Below are positions 13,628 through 18,717 of a DNA stretch of 37,667 nt, one piece after another. Position 1 is the first letter of the stretch. Each line of letters begins with the position of its first letter. Source of the stretch: a virus; the UHGV virus genome UHGV-0387565; one strand, 5' to 3'. A model generated the notes under the pieces. The model saw only the letters and a list, made by a program, of their open reading frames with translations. It was not told where the DNA came from and made no database searches. Position numbers and translations under genes: made by a program.

Positions 13628-13807
13628 ATGGAATACCAAATCTACGAATCTTACGATACGTTTTTATTATATCAGGAATTTATGGAGATACCCGGAAATA
13701 CATTTGAATTTCGGCTGCCAGAAGGGATGATCCTGACAACCGAAATGATGCACACCTTTCTGCGTGCGGCGTATATGAGTGTTGGACGGATGGAGTTGCC
13801 GTCCTGA
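13628..13807 (+). CDS. small hypothetical protein (59 aa), stand-alone gene between the lysis terminator and the integrase-proximal inverted repeat
   Basis: Strong RBS GAGGGGGG 6 nt before the ATG, with its own -10 element. Acidic F/Y/M-rich product. Confidence 0.45.
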   Translation: MEYQIYESYDTFLLYQEFMEIPGNTFEFRLPEGMILTTEMMHTFLRAAYMSVGRMELPS

Positions 13808-13846
13808 ATATTGTATCATTTTCGTGTATATTTATAATATGTAGAA

Positions 13847-13898
13847 ATATTATAGGTTATTGTTATTTGGTGGCCCGGATTGTAGTAACCTATAATAT
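13847..13898. other. candidate attP for the serine integrase: perfect 13-bp inverted arms ATATTATAGGTTA / TAACCTATAATAT separated by 26 bp
   Basis: Seen directly. Lies 27 bp from the 3' end of the serine recombinase gene. Its ~50-bp size and imperfect internal dyad symmetry are typical of serine-integrase attP sites. Confidence 0.4.
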
Positions 13899-13924
13899 AT
13901 CCGCAAACCCTATAATCAGAGGGT

Positions 13925-15343
13925 TCACGATATGTAAAGATGGAAGATTAGTTTGCCATTTTTCTTGTCATAAACGATATCCTCTACCAAACTCCTCATA
14001 AAAATCCCTTTGGTATCATAGTCTATTGCATCATTTTTAATCACATCATATACAGTTTGCACGTTCTTGAGCACGTCAGATTTTGTTTTCGTATCTTCAT
14101 TATTCTTATTGAGATTTTCCAGTTGCATCAAAATATCTTCCCTGTCTTTTTGCAGACGCTCTTTGTTCCGTTTATATTCTTCCAAAGTATCTACCTCATT
14201 TTCATAGGCAAGACGGATCCGTTTCTCCCTGTTGGAAATTTTATCAAGTTCAGACAAGAGTGATTCACGTTCTGATATCTTCTCGCCGGTCTCAGCGGAG
14301 TGGTAGGAGTATTCAAAATCCATACCAGAAAGAAGTTTTTCAAAATACTCTTCCAGTGCAGCGATCACTTTTTTCTCTGATATCGAACAGGATTCGGTAT
14401 GTATTCCTTTACTGTACTTATAACACTGGAAACCAGGTGAGTGCCTGTTTGCACCATTGTAAGAAAGAGAAGCTCCGCAGTACCCGCATTTTAAAATCCC
14501 TGATAACCAATGTTTACATGAGGATACATCACGGCGTTTCAGTGGCTTATATGTAGTTTGTATCTTTTTCATGCGCTCTTCGAAGCGTTCTTTTGAATAA
14601 TAGACCTCGTGAGTTCCGATAAACGATATACCGTTCCAAACGACAAGACCGTAGTAAAATGGATTTTTCAAGATTCTTTCTACGCTACGGGATTCAAATG
14701 GATTTCCTCGTCTTGTACGTACTCCCATACCATTTAGTTTTCGTGTTATCTTCGTAACATCCGAGTTATGGTAGTCAAATTCATCACAGATAAAGTCTAC
14801 AATCTTCATTTCGTCTTGATCAATTTTATAAGGATCTCCGTTTCCAACAGCGCGATACCCAAAAGGTGGGGACATCTGGTATCCTTTTTTTGTAGCCTTT
14901 TCTTTCATCCCTCTTAGGACTTCGCCAGAAAGCCGGATAGAGTAGTATTCATCCATCCATTCAATGATTCGTTCGATCAGAGAGCCGAATGGACCATCTA
15001 TCAAAGGTTCTGACACACTCACAACATCAACGTTGCTTTGCTTCCGCAGCAGGGATTTGTATACGATAGATTCTTCTTGATTTCTTGCGAATCTGCTGAA
15101 TTTCCAAACCAGAATCACATCAACCGGATGATCGGATGATTTTGCAAGCCCGATCATTTTCTGAAACTCCGGACGCTTGTCTGCTTTTCTTCCGGAAATT
15201 CCTAATTCAAAGAAAACTTTTAAAATGACAATATTGTTTTTAGTAGCATATTCCCGTAATAATTTTTCTTGAGAATCCGGTGAAAGCTCTTCCTGCTTAT
15301 CAGTGGATACGCGAACGTAACCATAGGCATACTTTACGCTCAT
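13925..15343 (-). CDS. int: large serine recombinase (phage integrase)
   Basis: N-terminal resolvase catalytic domain (YGYVRVSTDKQ with catalytic Ser), recombinase domain, Cys-rich zinc-ribbon region (CKHWLSGILKCGYCG...FQCYKY) and C-terminal coiled-coil. RBS GAGGAGATG. Confidence 0.95.
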   Translation of the reverse strand: MSVKYAYGYVRVSTDKQEELSPDSQEKLLREYATKNNIVILKVFFELGISGRKADKRPEFQKMIGLAKSSDHPVDVILVWKFSRFARNQEESIVYKSLLRKQSNVDVVSVSEPLIDGPFGSLIERIIEWMDEYYSIRLSGEVLRGMKEKATKKGYQMSPPFGYRAVGNGDPYKIDQDEMKIVDFICDEFDYHNSDVTKITRKLNGMGVRTRRGNPFESRSVERILKNPFYYGLVVWNGISFIGTHEVYYSKERFEERMKKIQTTYKPLKRRDVSSCKHWLSGILKCGYCGASLSYNGANRHSPGFQCYKYSKGIHTESCSISEKKVIAALEEYFEKLLSGMDFEYSYHSAETGEKISERESLLSELDKISNREKRIRLAYENEVDTLEEYKRNKERLQKDREDILMQLENLNKNNEDTKTKSDVLKNVQTVYDVIKNDAIDYDTKGIFMRSLVEDIVYDKKNGKLIFHLYIS

Positions 15344-15487
15344 AGTAGATCATCTCCTCATTTAATTTATGTAAAAATAAGTACAAAAATAACAGCCAGC
15401 ACATGAACAAATGTTCTGGATTGTGTAGCTGTTCCGAAGATGATACAATATTCTTGGATTTCAATCGCATATCTTCGGATATGTATA

Positions 15488-15526
15488 CCGTCTCAGTGTT
15501 GGTAGCACTGGGGCGGTATTTTATTG
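15488..15526. terminator. hairpin at the 3' end of the lipoprotein gene, possible bidirectional terminator/insulator between the lysogeny operon and int
   Basis: CCGTCTCAGTG-ttggtag-CACTGGGGCGG (11 bp with 2 G-U pairs), followed on the + strand by TATTTTATTG. On the - strand it directly follows the lipoprotein stop. Confidence 0.4.
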
Positions 15527-16012
15527 TCCTAAAGAATCGAGAGAGTTCATTAAGTCTTCCGTACTCATACCGGCAGCGGAAGAAGTGTATGCGTCAGTGA
15601 TCTGCTTTGCGTATTGGGTGTATACGTCAGTTAATTTCAATGACCATTCTTCATAAACACTGTACTCATCCCCATTTTTCTGCATTAGCGTAGCCATTTC
15701 GGAAACTCCCTGATTAGAAATCTCGGCCAGTTTTTCAACCTTGCTATTTGATAATTCAGCAAGTGCATTTAAGTCTCCGGCAATCGGAGCTGCTTCGTTA
15801 TTATATTCTTCCACAAGTCCCGGAGTCGCGTCAGCAATCTTCTGTGTGTAGTCATCAAGTATGCTCTGATATGTCACTTCAACTTCCGGTTCTTTTTCCA
15901 CTTTTTCGGCTTTAGGTTCATTATTTTTTACTGGCTCTTTATCTCCACCGCACGCTGTCATAGATAACGCCATAGTTCCAATCAATAACATGGTTACAAT
16001 TTTCTTTTTCAT
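15521..16012 (-). CDS. secreted lipoprotein (163 aa), candidate superinfection-exclusion-type moron
   Basis: Signal peptide MKKKIVTMLLIGTMALSMTAC with a lipobox Cys, then an acidic helical domain. RBS GGGAGAAG. Sits between int and the repressor operon. Confidence 0.7.
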   Translation of the reverse strand: MKKKIVTMLLIGTMALSMTACGGDKEPVKNNEPKAEKVEKEPEVEVTYQSILDDYTQKIADATPGLVEEYNNEAAPIAGDLNALAELSNSKVEKLAEISNQGVSEMATLMQKNGDEYSVYEEWSLKLTDVYTQYAKQITDAYTSSAAGMSTEDLMNSLDSLGQ

Positions 16013-16042
16013 AATATAGCTTCTCCCGTTTGCGATTTGTTT

Positions 16043-17107
16043 TTATTTATCCTGCTCGACATATCTTTTCACTACTTCGATCAACCGATCTTTGTATTTA
16101 TACAAATCATTCAGTGTGTCGATGTAAAATCGTTCCATCTTTTTATTTTCGTCCGGAATGAATAATTGTTTGTTTTTCTTGTCGAGATTTATCCTACAAA
16201 TAGGCTTTCTGTTATTGTCTTTGTATAAGATACCAAAGTAGCTCTCTGTATCTCTATGTACTACATCGTTAACATCCACTGTTCCTGCGAGCATACCTCT
16301 TACAATGTAGAATGATTCGATTTCTTCTTCCGTAGTTACGATTTTTGATACGGGTTCTTCTGGAAATTCTTCTGTTTCTGTTTTTTCATCATCGGTATCT
16401 TTTGATAAAGCAGAAGATATCTTGTTATTCACGATTTCATTCACAAATGAGGAGAACGCCCTTTTTACAACAGGAGTGAATTTTTCTATCACTCTTTGGT
16501 TCTTCTGTCCGTCATATATATTCGTGAGTACAAGCCTTACAAATTCTTCTGATGGTGATTCAAATTCATTTGACAATACACCTTTTATAAGAGAACTGTA
16601 TTTTAATTCTTCAGCTGTGCTGAATATTTTTTCTTTGTCAAAATTCTCTTTGCAGAATTTTCTCAACTCATTAATAGAAGAATCTTTTAAGTTGATCATA
16701 TTGATTTCAAGAAATGGCACTAAATCCATCTTGTTTGCTTCTTCTAGGTCAGTGTAAAATCTATATACCAGTCCATTTGTTAAAATTCCGAATTTAGCTG
16801 GAGATGTACCAAAATATCTGAAAAGTTGAGAAGAATGTTTGTCTAACTGTTCAGAACAACTTTTGCATTCAATTAAAATACTTGGCTCTCCGTTATCCAA
16901 AATCGCATAGTCGACCTTTTCCCCTTTTTTAATTCCAACATCTGCGATATATTCCGGACAAAATTCTAACGGATTGAATACATCATACCCAAGTATTTGA
17001 AACAGCGGTACGATTAAAGACATTTTTGTCGCTTCTTCAGTAGATACAGTATCCTTCATCATAGATACACGTTCCGAAAATTGTTTAATAGATTCGTTAA
17101 ACTCCAT
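16043..17107 (-). CDS. HsdR-N-terminal-type (COG4748-like) PD-(D/E)XK nuclease-domain protein with an unknown C-terminal domain
   Basis: N-terminal ~140 aa match the type I R-subunit N-terminal nuclease-domain pattern (LIVPLFQILGYDVF...GEKVDYAIL...PSILIECKS...QLFRYF...FGILTNG.YRFY). D...E-C-K fits a PD-(D/E)XK core. The C-terminal ~200 aa are acidic and unrecognised. RBS GGAGGAG. Confidence 0.7.
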   Translation of the reverse strand: MEFNESIKQFSERVSMMKDTVSTEEATKMSLIVPLFQILGYDVFNPLEFCPEYIADVGIKKGEKVDYAILDNGEPSILIECKSCSEQLDKHSSQLFRYFGTSPAKFGILTNGLVYRFYTDLEEANKMDLVPFLEINMINLKDSSINELRKFCKENFDKEKIFSTAEELKYSSLIKGVLSNEFESPSEEFVRLVLTNIYDGQKNQRVIEKFTPVVKRAFSSFVNEIVNNKISSALSKDTDDEKTETEEFPEEPVSKIVTTEEEIESFYIVRGMLAGTVDVNDVVHRDTESYFGILYKDNNRKPICRINLDKKNKQLFIPDENKKMERFYIDTLNDLYKYKDRLIEVVKRYVEQDK

Positions 17108-17167
17108 ATTCTCCTCCTTCTGTACTTTAACACCACTTTACTCTATATAAACGCCGAAGCGGTTATA

Positions 17168-17611
17168 TCATTTAAAACTTTTAAAATCCATAATCTTTTC
17201 ATCATATCCAGCCAGCCTTGCAATCTGGCTTTTTGTCATGCCCGGATTCTCATAGATTAAAGAATCTGGTATTAGAAGTTCTGCTGCAAAAATATTCGCT
17301 TCTATTTCATTGGTAGAAGATAACAGAAGAGTCTTGTTTCTGATAAAGTAGCAATTTTCTTTTCTGTGAAGAATGGAGTGTGCTAACTCGTGAGCCATTA
17401 CAAGATTCAGCTCATGTTCTTCCAAATCTTCATTCAGAAAAATGCACTTGTGATTTTTAAGAAACATATAGCATCCAGCTCGACTTCCCAAAGGTCCTAA
17501 TTGAACTTCGACATTTAAACAGTTTGCAAGTTTAAAAGGATTTCTTGTATTAAATTTCTTTATGTAGTATTCAACTAAACGCTTAATATCGTTTGTTCTC
17601 AATTTATACAC
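17168..17611 (-). CDS. ImmA/IrrE-family metallopeptidase (anti-repressor protease)
   Basis: HEXXH motif MAHELAHSILH. Gene start abuts the repressor stop (TAGGTG), giving the classic ImmR-ImmA pair. Confidence 0.85.
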   Translation of the reverse strand: MYKLRTNDIKRLVEYYIKKFNTRNPFKLANCLNVEVQLGPLGSRAGCYMFLKNHKCIFLNEDLEEHELNLVMAHELAHSILHRKENCYFIRNKTLLLSSTNEIEANIFAAELLIPDSLIYENPGMTKSQIARLAGYDEKIMDFKSFK

Positions 17612-18034
17612 CTACTTTTTATTTTTGTTAGGGTTGTACTTTTCTTTGTTAATCGGTTTCAACCTTCTCATCATCAGCTCGATTTGCCCAAGAAGCAAGT
17701 CAATATCTTCTTCTGGAATAGCTTGACCATCATAAGAAGCAGGACCTTCTTCATTGTTTTTCAACTTATTTCTGATGTTTTCCATATCTTTTGCAATGTC
17801 GCGCTCATCTTTCGCCGTTAGTGATGACGGATTATCACTGTTAGATGCTCCAGACATTAAATAATCCAACGATACGCTGAAGTAATCAGCGATTTGCTGG
17901 AGCTTGTTAACATTTGGTTGACTTGAACCTAATTTGCTTATGTACCCTTTTCCAAAATTAAGCTCGTTTTCCAATTTATTCATTGAAATTCCATGTTCTT
18001 TGCACAGATGTTTTACGCGTTCTCTCAGTGTCAT
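17612..18034 (-). CDS. XRE-family HTH transcriptional repressor (CI/ImmR-like)
   Basis: N-terminal HTH (LRERVKHLCKEHGISMNKLENELNFGKGYISKL). RBS GAAAGGAG before ATG (complement of 18032..18034). Divergent from the cro-like gene. Confidence 0.85.
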   Translation of the reverse strand: MTLRERVKHLCKEHGISMNKLENELNFGKGYISKLGSSQPNVNKLQQIADYFSVSLDYLMSGASNSDNPSSLTAKDERDIAKDMENIRNKLKNNEEGPASYDGQAIPEEDIDLLLGQIELMMRRLKPINKEKYNPNKNKK

Positions 18035-18263
18035 ATGTAGACTCCTTTCAAAATTCTGAAAAAATCGCAAAATAGTCCTTGACATTCTGAAATTATCGCG
18101 TATAATGTGATTATAGGGTTCTGAAAAAATCGCAAAAAATTGCGATAATAAGAATGCTGGAATTTATTTTGTAATTTTGCTTGACATCTTGATTATAGAA
18201 TATTTTCAGAACTTAGTCAATATAAAATTGTGATATTTTCAGAACTTAACAAAAAGAAAAGAG
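18035..18263. promoter_or_regulatory. lysis-lysogeny switch region with repeated operator-like half-sites and candidate promoters
   Basis: TTCTGAAAAA(A)TCGCAAA occurs at 18054..18070 and 18118..18136, with a variant TTCTGAAATTATCGCG at 18085..18100. The inverted form ATTTTCAGAACTTA occurs at 18202..18215 and 18235..18248. A rightward promoter has TTGACA 18078..18083 and TATAAT 18100..18105 with a 16-nt spacer. A candidate leftward promoter has -35 TTGACT (complement of 18214..18219) and -10 TATAAT (complement of 18191..18196). A palindrome ATCGCAAaaaaTTGCGAT lies at 18129..18146. Confidence 0.6.
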
Positions 18264-18464
18264 GTGATTGATACGGAAAATAATGTTTTTGACAAGATAT
18301 CTAAAAAAGCTTCAGAAAAAGGTATTTCCATCAACTTATTAGAAAGTCGTGCCGGCGTTTCCACCGGAAGTATTTATAAGTGGAATACAGTTAGTCCTAC
18401 AGTAAGAAACTTATCTAAAGTAGCAAAGGTGCTAGGCTGCACTATAGATGAGTTGTTAGAGTAA
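18264..18464 (+). CDS. Cro-like XRE-family HTH regulator
   Basis: 66-aa product with HTH (GISINLLESRAGVSTGSIYKW). GTG start as in the ORF track, though the RBS spacing is poor so the exact start is uncertain. Confidence 0.6.
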   Translation: MIDTENNVFDKISKKASEKGISINLLESRAGVSTGSIYKWNTVSPTVRNLSKVAKVLGCTIDELLE

Positions 18465-18564
18465 CACTTCGTGTTGATAAATATTTGTAAATACGGAGTA
18501 TGGAAGTTTGTAGGACAACATACGTAGGACGATCAACCTGCATACAGTAAAGAGGGGTGGTGAA

Positions 18565-18717
18565 ATGAAAGGAATCGAAGTAGTAAGCATGATTAAAATC
18601 AATGGATCTTGGATAAGCCAAGAGGATTTAAACCGAGAGGAACTTTCTCAAATCTTGGAGAAAAAAATAGATGAAACGATGAAAAATATAGGATTCGAAA
18701 GAAGAAAAACCGCCTAG
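18565..18717 (+). CDS. small hypothetical protein (50 aa)
   Basis: Strong RBS AAGAGGGGTGGTG before ATG 18565. The stop sits inside the 14-bp palindrome ACCGCCTAGGCGGT. Confidence 0.35.
   Translation: MKGIEVVSMIKINGSWISQEDLNREELSQILEKKIDETMKNIGFERRKTA

What the first reader, a model, noticed from the sequence alone, without database searches (positions are those of the whole stretch)
15521..17107. Lysogeny-module moron: lipoprotein plus HsdR-N-type nuclease-domain protein between the integrase and the ImmA/repressor operon
Two co-oriented genes sit in the slot where temperate phages of Gram-positive hosts carry superinfection-exclusion or abortive-infection cargo, for example ltp in Streptococcus phage TP-J34 or sie genes in lactococcal phages. 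They lie downstream of, and on the same strand as, the repressor and ImmA. A strong hairpin follows them before int. This suggests expression from the lysogenic promoter. The pair consists of a secreted lipoprotein and a cytoplasmic PD-(D/E)XK nuclease of the type I R-subunit N-terminal family fused to an unknown acidic C-terminal domain. It could be a two-layer exclusion/defence module: a surface block plus an intracellular nuclease. I do not recognise it as a named defence system.
Basis: partly seen in the sequence, partly recalled or inferred. Interest (0 to 1): 0.75.

Follow-up and report, generated by a model that had tools for sequence, protein, structure and literature searches.

The report
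Prophage cargo: solitary nuclease plus lipoprotein
A temperate phage of gut Lachnospiraceae carries, in the operon that keeps it dormant, a stand-alone restriction-type DNA nuclease and a surface lipoprotein; both are real, conserved genes that probably protect the host cell against other phages, but they are two independently swapped cargo genes, not a paired system.

Summary
Two co-oriented genes lie at 15521-17107 (- strand), between a serine integrase and an ImmA/repressor pair.

**Nuclease.** The 354-aa protein belongs to a large, full-length family (PHROG 4225; named "predicted type IV restriction endonuclease" or "type I restriction endonuclease" by sources). It has three parts:
- a helical connector followed by an acidic linker;
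- a C-terminal alpha/beta sandwich with no significant structural relative.

It is not a fragment of hsdR. No helicase, methylase or specificity gene accompanies it. In Bacillota and in a Corynebacterium phage, the family sits repeatedly in the repressor-(ImmA)-X-integrase slot.

**Lipoprotein.** It has an invariant lipobox cysteine. Its family is much smaller and occupies the same slot.

**Pairing.** The two genes co-occur only in a small clade of near-identical prophages. In modules with the same ImmA and lipoprotein, the nuclease position carries other cassettes, including the PADLOC candidate defence system PDC-M24.

**Hairpin.** The "strong hairpin" has its T-run on the opposite strand. 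It belongs to a conserved non-coding block upstream of int.

**Verdict.** These are ordinary but uncharacterised lysogeny-module cargo. The most likely reading is a solitary defence nuclease plus an independent exclusion-type lipoprotein.

The parts
17612..18085 (-). HTH (XRE/CI-type) repressor, first gene of the lysogeny operon. The real start is probably the ATG at 18034, which follows a GAAAGGAG ribosome-binding site.
   Evidence: Pfam HTH_19 at 1.3e-5 and HTH_3 at 7.8e-5. PADLOC capH-like at 3.3e-6. Sequence read.
18192..18220 (-). Sigma-70-like promoter (TTGACT-17-TATAAT, 11/12) upstream of the repressor. It is the inferred promoter for rep-immA-nuclease-lipoprotein.
   Evidence: Consensus scan only. 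No comparable - strand site lies between it and the cargo genes.
17168..17611 (-). ImmA/IrrE-type M78 metalloprotease (anti-repressor protease).
   Evidence: Pfam Peptidase_M78 at 1.1e-15. PADLOC capP-like at 1.2e-14.
17105..17178 (-). Conserved 70-bp junction/spacer carrying the ribosome-binding site (AAGGAGGAG). In sister prophages the same spacer sits directly in front of the lipoprotein ATG, so it marks the cassette-exchange point.
   Evidence: blastn junction mapping: window 17178..17105 matches L095 4495-4573, L112 4927-4986, L114 4928-4993 and L109 4930-4987, each immediately upstream of the lipoprotein gene.
16718..17107 (-). Nuclease gene, residues 1-130: HsdR-N-type PD-(D/E)XK catalytic domain. 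Invariant residues are E24, D66 (16912-16910), E80 (16870-16868), K82 (16864-16862) and Q94.
16388..16717 (-). Nuclease gene, residues 131-240: helical connector (long helices 158-183 and 204-241).
   Evidence: AF2 model, pLDDT above 90. dN/dS 0.17.
16337..16387 (-). Nuclease gene, residues 241-257: acidic, disordered linker (DTDDEKTETEEFPEEP), variable in length among homologues.
   Evidence: pLDDT below 50 for residues 241-253. Gap-rich, variable columns. dN/dS 0.55.
16043..16336 (-). Nuclease gene, residues 258-354 plus the stop codon: C-terminal alpha-beta5-alpha sandwich domain. Conserved residues are T258, T259, E262, D286, Y290 and R305. It is the presumed specificity or sensor domain.
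15521..16012 (-). Lipoprotein gene. It encodes a signal peptide with lipobox (...LSMTA|C21), a Lys/Glu/Pro-rich tether (22-46) and a conserved extracytoplasmic domain of about 100 residues (47-146).
   Evidence: Cys21 and 26 other columns are invariant in 18 homologues. PHROG 1904 at 1.9e-9 over residues 46-146. Homologues carry a C-terminal LysM domain. dN/dS 0.09.
15380..15520 (.). Conserved non-coding block immediately upstream of int. It includes the 'strong hairpin' at 15485-15519 (T-run on the + strand), an invariant 18-mer CCGAAGATGATACAATAT and its 8-nt inverted copy ATCTTCGG.
   Evidence: Found in 54 fetched loci (26 distinct versions), upstream of both serine and tyrosine integrases, regardless of cargo. 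Terminator-like on the + strand. No Rfam match. No compensatory pairs on either strand.
13925..15343 (-). Large serine recombinase (integrase), last gene of the lysogeny module.
   Evidence: Pfam Resolvase at 8.2e-29, Recombinase at 4.4e-13, Zn_ribbon_recom at 5.8e-8.

Best explanation
The two genes are independent accessory cargo (morons) in a cassette-exchange hotspot of the lysogeny operon of a temperate Lachnospiraceae phage, related to Ruminococcus gnavus phages.

Nuclease. The 354-aa protein is a solitary restriction-type DNA endonuclease of the family catalogued as PHROG 4225, which sources also name 'predicted type IV restriction endonuclease'.
- Shown: an N-terminal HsdR-N/type IIG-like PD-(D/E)XK domain with a complete metal-binding and catalytic set (E24, D66, E80-x-K82, Q94).
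- Shown: this domain is joined by a helical connector and a flexible acidic linker to a C-terminal alpha/beta sandwich.
- Inferred: the sandwich supplies target recognition or activation in place of the methylase/specificity module or ATP motor of type IIG and type I enzymes.
- Inferred: the gene is transcribed with the repressor and ImmA from the lysogenic promoter, so it is present in lysogens and cuts incoming foreign (phage) DNA. Because no cognate methylase exists, it must discriminate by DNA modification or by some other non-self feature.

Lipoprotein.
- Shown: it has a signal peptide with a lipobox, and relatives fused to LysM.
- Inferred: it is exported and lipid-anchored outside the membrane. 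It acts separately at the cell envelope, most likely as a superinfection-exclusion or other lysogenic-conversion factor.
For: Gene order, spacing and the single strong - strand promoter-like site.

Nuclease family:
- Pfam HSDR_N and a full-length PHROG 4225 match at 8e-148.
- 5633 50%-identity clusters at E <= 0.001, nearly all about 340-390 aa and matched end to end.
- Invariant E24/D66/E80/K82/Q94.
- Purifying selection in both folded domains.
- Source names: 'type I restriction endonuclease', 'endonuclease', 'predicted type IV restriction endonuclease'.

The nuclease is solitary:
- Among the 145 immediate neighbours in 80 species genomes, the recurrent Pfam families are HTH_3 (14), Peptidase_S24 (6), Peptidase_M78 (6), Phage_integrase (7) and Resolvase (4). 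No methylase, HsdS or helicase family recurs.
- None of the 10 replication-module proteins of this phage that were scanned is a methylase.

The slot recurs:
- 21 of 43 Bacillota loci have both an integrase and an HTH/ImmA gene within 5 kb.
- The same order is seen in gut prophages, in S. pneumoniae phage IPP25 as repressor-hypothetical-nuclease-integrase, and in Corynebacterium phage Juicebox.

The slot is a defence-type hotspot:
- Sister modules with the same ImmA and lipoprotein carry PDC-M24A/B (PADLOC 1e-70 and 5e-95), a HIRAN-TM protein plus bPH_1, and other cassettes at the nuclease position.
- Some family members are fused to TerD domains.

Lipoprotein:
- Invariant Cys21.
- The same slot is used next to tyrosine integrases and in an Enterococcus prophage, as HTH-M78-lipoprotein/LysM-integrase.
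Against: - No experiment and no characterised homologue was found. No paper in the held library reports a tested member.
- PADLOC has no model for either protein.
- Outside Bacillota the family is mostly chromosomal with no phage context: 34 of 37 loci. The family's function therefore need not be tied to lysogeny.
- Expression from the lysogenic promoter rests on consensus scans and gene spacing only.
- The lipoprotein's domain has no structural or functional annotation.
Confidence: 0.55

Rival explanations
1. The pair is a cooperative two-layer exclusion/defence system. The lipoprotein and the nuclease would be functionally coupled and inherited together.
For: They are adjacent, 30 bp apart and co-oriented. 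They co-occur in the same order in a few near-identical prophages: L013, L014, L015, L017, L020, L104 and L107.
Against: - About 73 of 80 nuclease loci lack the lipoprotein, and about 17 of 24 lipoprotein loci lack the nuclease.
- The nuclease pairs with bPH_1 in other prophages or stands alone before int.
- The lipoprotein stands alone, or with a 90-aa ORF, elsewhere.
- The nuclease position is swapped for unrelated cassettes while the lipoprotein stays in place.
- The family sizes differ more than 50-fold: at least 8000 versus 151 hits.
Confidence: 0.07
2. The nuclease serves the phage's own life cycle and is not a defence of the lysogen. Possible roles are host or competitor DNA degradation after induction, recombination or repair, or a role in excision.
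For: - It is co-transcribed with ImmA. If the repressor autoregulates its promoter, induction could raise expression, as with the capH/capP-like pair.
- It always lies next to the integrase in Bacillota phages.
- PD-(D/E)XK nucleases do serve in recombination.
Against: - The phage already encodes a DUF2800/PDDEXK_1 exonuclease, an Enc34-type SSB, a VRR-NUC nuclease and an HNH nuclease in its early and replication module, on the other strand.
- The nuclease is dispensable. Sister phages with the same module replace it with unrelated cassettes, including a candidate defence system.
- The family is common in non-phage chromosomal contexts.
- Its closest structural relatives are restriction enzymes, not recombination nucleases.
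Confidence: 0.15
3. The nuclease is a toxic effector of an abortive-infection or addiction type. It would be held inactive, for example by its C-terminal domain or a host factor, and released on infection or on prophage loss. It would kill the cell instead of selectively restricting foreign DNA.
For: - It is a solitary nuclease with no protective methylase.
- It has a tethered C-terminal domain of unknown ligand.
- Some relatives are fused to TerD stress-response domains.
- Neighbouring alternative cassettes look like Abi-type genes, such as a TM protein pair and HIRAN-TM.
- One Porphyromonas phage carries the gene next to HicAB.
Against: No antitoxin-like or sensor partner is conserved next to it. 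Nothing here distinguishes this reading from direct restriction. The structural relatives are restriction nucleases.
Confidence: 0.2

Closest known systems
N-terminal nuclease domain of type I restriction R subunits (HsdR; EcoR124I 2w00; Vibrio HsdR fragment 3h1t) and of type IIG/IIL enzymes (BpuSI 3s1s, DrdV 7lo5)
   Different: No SF2 motor, no methyltransferase or target-recognition domain in the protein, and no hsdM/hsdS or methylase gene nearby. Those modules are replaced by an acidic linker and a roughly 95-residue alpha/beta sandwich of unknown function.
COG4748 / PHROG 4225: 'predicted type IV restriction endonuclease' / 'endonuclease' (catalogued family, uncharacterised as far as the searched literature shows)
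   Same: Full-length match to PHROG 4225 (E = 8e-148, residues 1-351 on profile positions 2-356 of 357). A 46%-identical full-length homologue is named 'predicted type IV restriction endonuclease' by JGI. COG4748 is listed among restriction endonucleases in a survey of Tn7 cargo (PMC8649781) and grouped with HSDR_N in the PD-(D/E)XK census (PMC3424549).
   Different: Nothing differs at the family level; this is an ordinary member. What is added here is the recurrent position in the repressor-(ImmA)-X-integrase operon of Gram-positive temperate phages, and the anatomy of the C-terminal domain.
Prophage-encoded exclusion lipoproteins in the int-repressor interval, such as Ltp of Streptococcus thermophilus phage TP-J34 (recalled from memory, not compared here)
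   Same: A small secreted lipoprotein with a lipobox cysteine, encoded between the integrase and the repressor and co-oriented with the lysogeny genes.
   Different: No sequence or fold comparison with Ltp was possible. No Pfam, NCBIfam or PDB hit of significance was found. The conserved domain is shared with LysM-fused prophage proteins, which suggests a cell-wall-associated role not described for Ltp.
Defence hotspots of temperate phages and satellites (P2/P4 hotspots; morons between integrase and repressor in mycobacteriophages), recalled from memory and from PMC13586616 (title and abstract only)
   Same: A fixed position with conserved flanks (the 3' end of immA plus a 70-bp spacer, and the lipoprotein gene). 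Unrelated cassettes are exchanged there between otherwise near-identical phages, including a PADLOC candidate system.
   Different: The host clade differs (Lachnospiraceae and other Bacillota), and the slot lies inside the repressor-ImmA-integrase operon itself. Defence activity has not been shown for any of these cassettes.

Membership tests
HSDR_N / PD-(D/E)XK nuclease domain (Pfam PF04313) | Profile match above Pfam's gathering score | tested here: met
   62.7 bits against a cut-off of 25.1, E = 5.5e-17, residues 23-125. HSDR_N_2 scores 33 bits against 25.
HSDR_N / PD-(D/E)XK nuclease domain (Pfam PF04313) | Catalytic D ... E-x-K motif (plus a helix-1 glutamate), conserved across homologues | tested here: met
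   E24, D66, E80, K82 and Q94 are invariant in 32 sequences of 38-53% identity.
HSDR_N / PD-(D/E)XK nuclease domain (Pfam PF04313) | Restriction-endonuclease-like alpha/beta fold similar to solved HsdR N-terminal domains | tested here: met
Type I restriction-modification R subunit (HsdR) | SF2 translocase motor (ResIII/Helicase_C) in the same polypeptide | tested here: not met
   The only Pfam hits are HSDR_N, HSDR_N_2 and a weak PDDEXK_3. The protein is 354 aa, and the family is uniformly about 350 aa.
Type I restriction-modification R subunit (HsdR) | Adjacent hsdM and hsdS genes | tested here: not met
   No methylase or Methylase_S family recurs among the 145 immediate neighbours in 80 genomes. 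None of the 10 replication-module proteins scanned in the window is one.
Type IV (modification-dependent) restriction endonuclease | Solitary nuclease with no cognate methyltransferase | tested here: met
   Neighbourhood analysis. The scanned part of the window's own gene content.
Type IV (modification-dependent) restriction endonuclease | A domain that reads modified bases (SRA, EVE/YTH/ASCH, McrB-N, winged helix and similar) | tested here: inconclusive
Type IV (modification-dependent) restriction endonuclease | Cleavage dependent on DNA modification | not testable with these tools
   Needs nuclease assays on modified and unmodified DNA.
PHROG 4225 ('endonuclease') | Full-length profile match | tested here: met
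   E = 8.2e-148, residues 1-351 on profile positions 2-356 of 357.
COG4748 ('predicted type IV restriction endonuclease') | Assignment by the COG profile | not tested
   No COG library was available. Indirect evidence: JGI gives the COG4748 name to the full-length homologue P0464, which is 46% identical.
Named anti-phage defence systems (PADLOC-DB v2.0.0) | Significant match to a system component model | tested here: not met
   Nuclease: only REase_MTase_IIG at E = 0.0037, 13 bits, over the nuclease domain alone. Lipoprotein: no hit.
Two-gene defence system (lipoprotein + nuclease) | Conserved co-occurrence and order of the two genes across diverged elements | tested here: not met
   About 7 of 80 and 6-7 of 24 loci, all from one closely related clade. 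Each gene occurs alone in the same slot elsewhere.
Bacterial lipoprotein | Signal peptide with a lipobox and an invariant +1 cysteine | tested here: met
   The sequence reads MKKK-hydrophobic-LSMTA|C. Cys21 is invariant in 18/18, with -3 to -1 variants ITA, LGA, TAC-type. No dedicated predictor such as SignalP or LipoP was available.
Prophage superinfection-exclusion lipoprotein (Ltp-like) | Homology to Ltp, or a demonstrated block of phage DNA entry | not tested
   No Ltp sequence or model was at hand. Only position and lipoprotein nature are shared.

The most novel reading that the evidence does not exclude
The roughly 350-aa HSDR_N-plus-sandwich family (PHROG 4225/COG4748), with thousands of clusters across phyla, could be an unrecognised single-protein anti-phage system. 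Its C-terminal alpha/beta sandwich would be a new kind of non-self DNA or phage-protein sensor. Temperate phages of Gram-positive bacteria (Lachnospiraceae, Enterococcus, S. pneumoniae, Clostridium, Corynebacterium) would have repeatedly wired it into the repressor-ImmA-integrase operon, a previously undescribed defence-cassette hotspot, so that its dose follows the lysogenic or SOS state. A conserved non-coding element upstream of int, shared by phages with serine and tyrosine integrases, could be a regulatory RNA or protein-binding site that insulates int from this operon.
Probability: 0.4. Interest if true: 0.6.

Novelty: new member of a known kind. Interest (0 to 1): 0.4.

Why it matters
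If the inference is right, it has two consequences.
- A very common, already catalogued but untested nuclease family becomes a concrete, testable candidate for prophage-mediated defence in gut Firmicutes and in pathogens such as S. pneumoniae and Enterococcus.
- The immA-to-int interval of these phages becomes a place to mine further defence cassettes. PDC-M24, HIRAN-TM/bPH and several unknowns were already seen there.

The finding also corrects the tempting reading of two adjacent morons as one "system". Taken by itself, the locus is ordinary temperate-phage cargo.

Tried and rejected
- **PDB sequence searches.** Searches with the protein, the family profile and the C-terminal profile found nothing significant. 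The lipoprotein profile matched only signal-peptide or low-complexity regions.
- **Fold searches.** A Foldseek search of the C-terminal domain against BFVD gave no hit with E <= 0.001. The afdb50 library was unavailable.
- **Pseudogenised hsdR.** Rejected because of the size and uniformity of the family and dN/dS of about 0.1.
- **A conserved partner gene.** I looked for a methylase, helicase or HsdS by clustering neighbours and by a Pfam scan of 145 neighbours. None recurred. One metagenomic relative sits after an SNF2/ResIII helicase, but this arrangement does not recur.
- **Rfam.** A scan of 13800-18600 found nothing.
- **RNAalifold.** Folding the conserved non-coding block on each strand gave no compensatory pairs and low covariation terms. 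Neither the strand nor the nature of that element could be settled.
- **attP.** I considered the block as attP. This is unlikely because it precedes both serine and tyrosine integrases.
- **Literature.** Searches for COG4748, PF04313, HSDR_N with prophage, and similar terms found no characterised member.
Full report
**1. What is in the sequence**

The window looks like a roughly 37.7-kb temperate siphovirus-type genome.
- Structural and lysis genes run on the + strand up to 13.5 kb.
- The replication module runs on the + strand from 19.4 kb (DUF2800/PDDEXK_1, Enc34-type SSB, PolA, VapE-like primase-helicase, VRR-NUC, HNH, SNF2).
- It shares short DNA stretches with isolated Ruminococcus gnavus phages.

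Between the two blocks, a - strand block reads in this order:
- HTH repressor, 17612-18085;
- ImmA/M78 protease, 17168-17611;
- a 354-aa ORF, 16043-17107;
- a 163-aa ORF, 15521-16012;
- a large serine recombinase, 13925-15343.

A cro-like HTH gene lies divergently at 18264-18464. Two facing sigma-70-like promoters lie in the switch region: TTGACT-17-TATAAT on the - strand at 18220-18192, and TTGACA-16-TATAAT on the + strand at 18079-18106. The gaps in the - strand block are 0, 60, 30 and 177 bp. Both cargo genes have good ribosome-binding sites.

**2. The 354-aa protein**

*Family.* Pfam places residues 23-125 in HSDR_N (E = 5.5e-17). PHROGs gives a full-length match to phrog_4225 "endonuclease" (8e-148). 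PADLOC gives only a marginal hit (0.0037) to the nuclease end of type IIG enzymes. The family is very large.
- The word-indexed search saturated at 8000 hits.
- The exhaustive search of 50%-identity representatives found 5633 clusters at E <= 0.001 and 1246 at E <= 1e-30. Almost all are 340-390 aa and match from end to end.
- Sources name members "type I restriction endonuclease", "endonuclease" and "predicted type IV restriction endonuclease". To my knowledge the last is the COG4748 name, but no COG library was available to confirm it.
- COG4748 is listed with HSDR_N in the PD-(D/E)XK census (PMC3424549) and among restriction endonucleases in a Tn7-cargo survey (PMC8649781).
- I found no paper reporting an experiment on a member.

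*Conservation.* In an alignment of 32 members at 38-53% identity to the query, E24, D66, E80, K82 and Q94 are invariant. This is the PD-(D/E)XK catalytic set.

*Structure.* AlphaFold2 with this alignment gives pLDDT 91, with four regions:
- an alpha/beta nuclease domain (about residues 1-130);
- a helical connector (about 131-240);
- a disordered acidic linker (241-257);
- a C-terminal alpha-beta5-alpha domain (258-354).

*Selection.* Pairwise dN/dS among 65 distinct close homologues is 0.08 for the nuclease domain, 0.17 for the connector, 0.55 for the linker and 0.10 for the C-terminal domain. dS is partly saturated, so these are rough values. The protein is a complete, constrained, two-domain enzyme and not a remnant of hsdR.

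**3. Is there a partner gene?**

- I fetched 80 loci from 80 species genomes spanning Bacillota, Bacteroidota, Pseudomonadota and Planctomycetota.
- Clustering the neighbours within 5 kb showed only four recurrent groups: XRE-type HTH proteins (27 loci, just upstream), tyrosine-integrase-like proteins (16 loci, downstream, same strand), serine recombinases (8) and ImmA-like proteases (7).
- A Pfam scan of the 145 immediate neighbours gave HTH_3 (14), Peptidase_S24 (6), Peptidase_M78 (6), Phage_integrase (7) and Resolvase (4). No methyltransferase, HsdS or helicase family was shared by two or more neighbours.
- In Bacillota, 21 of 43 loci have both an integrase and an HTH/ImmA gene within 5 kb. 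In the other phyla, 34 of 37 have neither.
- The same order appears in gut prophages: HTH-M78-nuclease-bPH_1-serine integrase.
- It appears in S. pneumoniae phage IPP25 as repressor-hypothetical-"type I restriction enzyme related protein"-integrase.
- It appears in Corynebacterium phage Juicebox as repressor-endonuclease-metalloprotease-...-integrase.
- A Porphyromonas phage carries the gene beside HicAB.
- Only 19 of 50,697 phage records hold a homologue, but their hosts span several phyla.
- Some family members are fused to TerD domains, at either end.
- None of the 10 replication-module proteins of this window that were scanned is a methyltransferase.

The nuclease is therefore solitary. 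Its one recurrent association is with the lysogeny operon of Gram-positive temperate phages.

**4. The lipoprotein**

- The N-terminus reads MKKKIVTMLLIGTMALSMTA|CGGD. The cysteine is invariant in 18 homologues down to 47% identity, and the -3 to -1 positions vary within lipobox-compatible residues.
- A Lys/Glu/Pro-rich tether follows, and then a conserved domain of about 100 residues with 26 further invariant columns.
- That domain matches PHROG 1904 (1.9e-9). In Enterococcus and other hosts it is followed by a LysM domain, which argues for an extracytoplasmic, wall-proximal location.
- The family is small (151 hits) and again lives in the lysogeny slot. Examples are HTH-lipoprotein-90-aa ORF-tyrosine integrase and HTH-M78-lipoprotein/LysM-tyrosine integrase in an Enterococcus raffinosus prophage.
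- dN/dS is 0.09.
- No fold or function could be assigned.

**5. Are the two genes a system?**

No.
- Of 80 IMG/VR loci with the nuclease (64-95% identity), only L013, L014, L015, L017 and L020 have the lipoprotein directly downstream. L052 has a distant relative.
- Of about 24 lipoprotein loci, 6-7 have the nuclease.
- Junction mapping gives the clearest picture. In loci whose repressor-ImmA region is 93-96% identical in DNA to the window's and whose lipoprotein gene is 80-87% identical, the interval between them holds unrelated cassettes:
  - DUF6978 plus DUF1828/1829, which are PADLOC candidate system PDC-M24A/B (1e-70 and 5e-95);
  - a 213-aa TPR-like protein;
  - a 300-aa protein of unknown function;
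  - a 334-aa protein plus a 155-aa membrane protein.
- A more diverged module (L109; ImmA 56% identical) holds a HIRAN-TM protein plus bPH_1 at the same position.
- The 70-bp spacer that precedes the nuclease ATG in the window (17178-17105) precedes the lipoprotein ATG in those loci. The nuclease gene therefore behaves as a discrete insert at a cassette-exchange point.

**6. The hairpin and the block upstream of int**

- The hairpin at 15485-15519 is strong, but its T-run (TTTTATTG) is on the + strand. On the - strand it is followed by ACAUAUCC.
- It is the distal end of a roughly 140-nt non-coding block, about 95% identical to the int-gp20 intergenic region of R. gnavus phage phiRgPS_6. That phage has a tyrosine integrase and a different cargo gene.
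- blastn finds the block in 54 fetched loci (26 versions). It was always immediately upstream of int in the loci I inspected (phiRgPS_6, L012, L125 and others), whether int is a serine or a tyrosine recombinase and whatever the cargo.
- It contains an invariant 18-mer, CCGAAGATGATACAATAT, and an 8-nt inverted copy, ATCTTCGG.
- Read on the + strand, it resembles TTGnnn-17-TGATACAAT followed by a short transcript of about 70 nt that ends at the hairpin.
- Read on the - strand, it resembles a leader with a second hairpin plus U-run just before the int ribosome-binding site.
- RNAalifold found no compensatory changes on either strand, and Rfam has no match. I leave this element unresolved.
- It does show that the hairpin is not evidence for termination of the cargo operon.

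**7. Mechanism**

*Shown:*
- an intact HsdR-N-type nuclease domain;
- a tethered, conserved C-terminal domain;
- no modification or motor partner;
- position in the lysogeny operon;
- the exchangeable-cassette nature of the slot.

*Inferred:*
- transcription from the repressor promoter in lysogens;
- Mg2+-dependent cleavage of incoming DNA;
- discrimination through the C-terminal domain, by modification or by another non-self cue;
- benefit to the lysogen as defence against other phages.

The lipoprotein most likely acts independently at the envelope, in exclusion or another conversion function.

They are weighed in the structured fields, and the pair hypothesis is the weakest.

**8. Novelty and verdict**

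The nuclease is an ordinary member of a catalogued but untested family. The lipoprotein belongs to a small prophage family that no library searched here annotates. Together they are typical lysogeny-module morons. What goes beyond the database labels:
- the conserved placement of this nuclease family in the repressor-(ImmA)-X-integrase operon, across Bacillota and in one Actinobacteria phage;
- evidence that the position is a cassette hotspot;
- the anatomy of the C-terminal domain;
- the conserved non-coding block upstream of int.

Interest is moderate (0.4). The classification is new member of a known kind.

Noticed in passing
window 15380-15530 (also L121 4001-4145, L012 3706-3856, L125 7202-7350 and about 50 other fetched loci): A roughly 140-nt non-coding block immediately upstream of int is conserved in 54 loci (26 versions). 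It is present whether int is a serine or a tyrosine recombinase and whatever cargo lies beside it. It holds an invariant 18-mer CCGAAGATGATACAATAT, an inverted 8-mer ATCTTCGG, and the terminator-like hairpin at 15485-15519 with its T-run on the + strand. It could be a short + strand RNA gene (TTGnnn-17-TGATACAAT promoter), an int leader or attenuator on the - strand, or protein-binding sites. There is no Rfam match, and no compensatory pairs on either strand.
   Followed up: partly
L095 3256-4487; L103 4295-4936; L112 3547-4449; L114 3478-4921; L109 3524-4934: In sister prophages with a closely similar or related ImmA and the same lipoprotein, the nuclease position holds other cassettes: PDC-M24A/B (DUF6978 plus DUF1828/1829), a TPR-like 213-aa protein, an unknown 300-aa protein, a 334-aa protein plus a 155-aa membrane protein, and a HIRAN-TM protein plus bPH_1. 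The slot is worth mining for defence genes.
   Followed up: partly
window 18060-18260: The switch region between the repressor and cro holds about five copies of a TTCTGAAAA / TTTTCAGAA motif in both orientations, for example TTTGCGATTTTTTCAGAA twice. These overlap the two facing promoter-like sites and are probably operators. The repressor probably starts at the ATG at 18034, after GAAAGGAG, not at 18085.
   Followed up: no
P0250, P0321, P0344, P0384 (N-terminal) and P0356 (C-terminal): Some members of the nuclease family are fused to a TerD domain. In P0356, TerD replaces the C-terminal sandwich.
   Followed up: no
L122 3896-7080: One metagenomic relative (P0343) lies directly downstream of a 647-aa ResIII/SWI2_SNF2/Helicase_C protein near a tyrosine integrase. 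This resembles a split motor-plus-nuclease arrangement. It did not recur in the 80 genome loci.
   Followed up: partly
L121 4142-4741 (phiRgPS_6 gp20): In the isolated R. gnavus phage phiRgPS_6, the same slot between int and the ImmA-like gene holds a 200-aa 'beta-sandwich domain-containing protein'. Its first 27 residues match the signal peptide of the window's lipoprotein at 85% identity. Different exported cargo therefore shares one leader.
   Followed up: no
window 17108-17167: The immA-nuclease spacer contains a small GC stem with a UUCG loop (ACCGC-TTCG-GCGTT) followed by TTTATATAG. This is a weak terminator- or attenuator-like element at the cassette junction. It was read by eye only.
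   Followed up: no
Bacteroidota loci among L156-L204 (e.g. L188 7230-7895): In Bacteroidota the nuclease family is chromosomal. Six loci have a response-regulator-like protein of about 226 aa just upstream, and five have a TPR protein of about 590 aa. A paper links RR-like and HK-like genes with restriction-modification neighbourhoods that include HSDR domains (PMC8011034).
   Followed up: no
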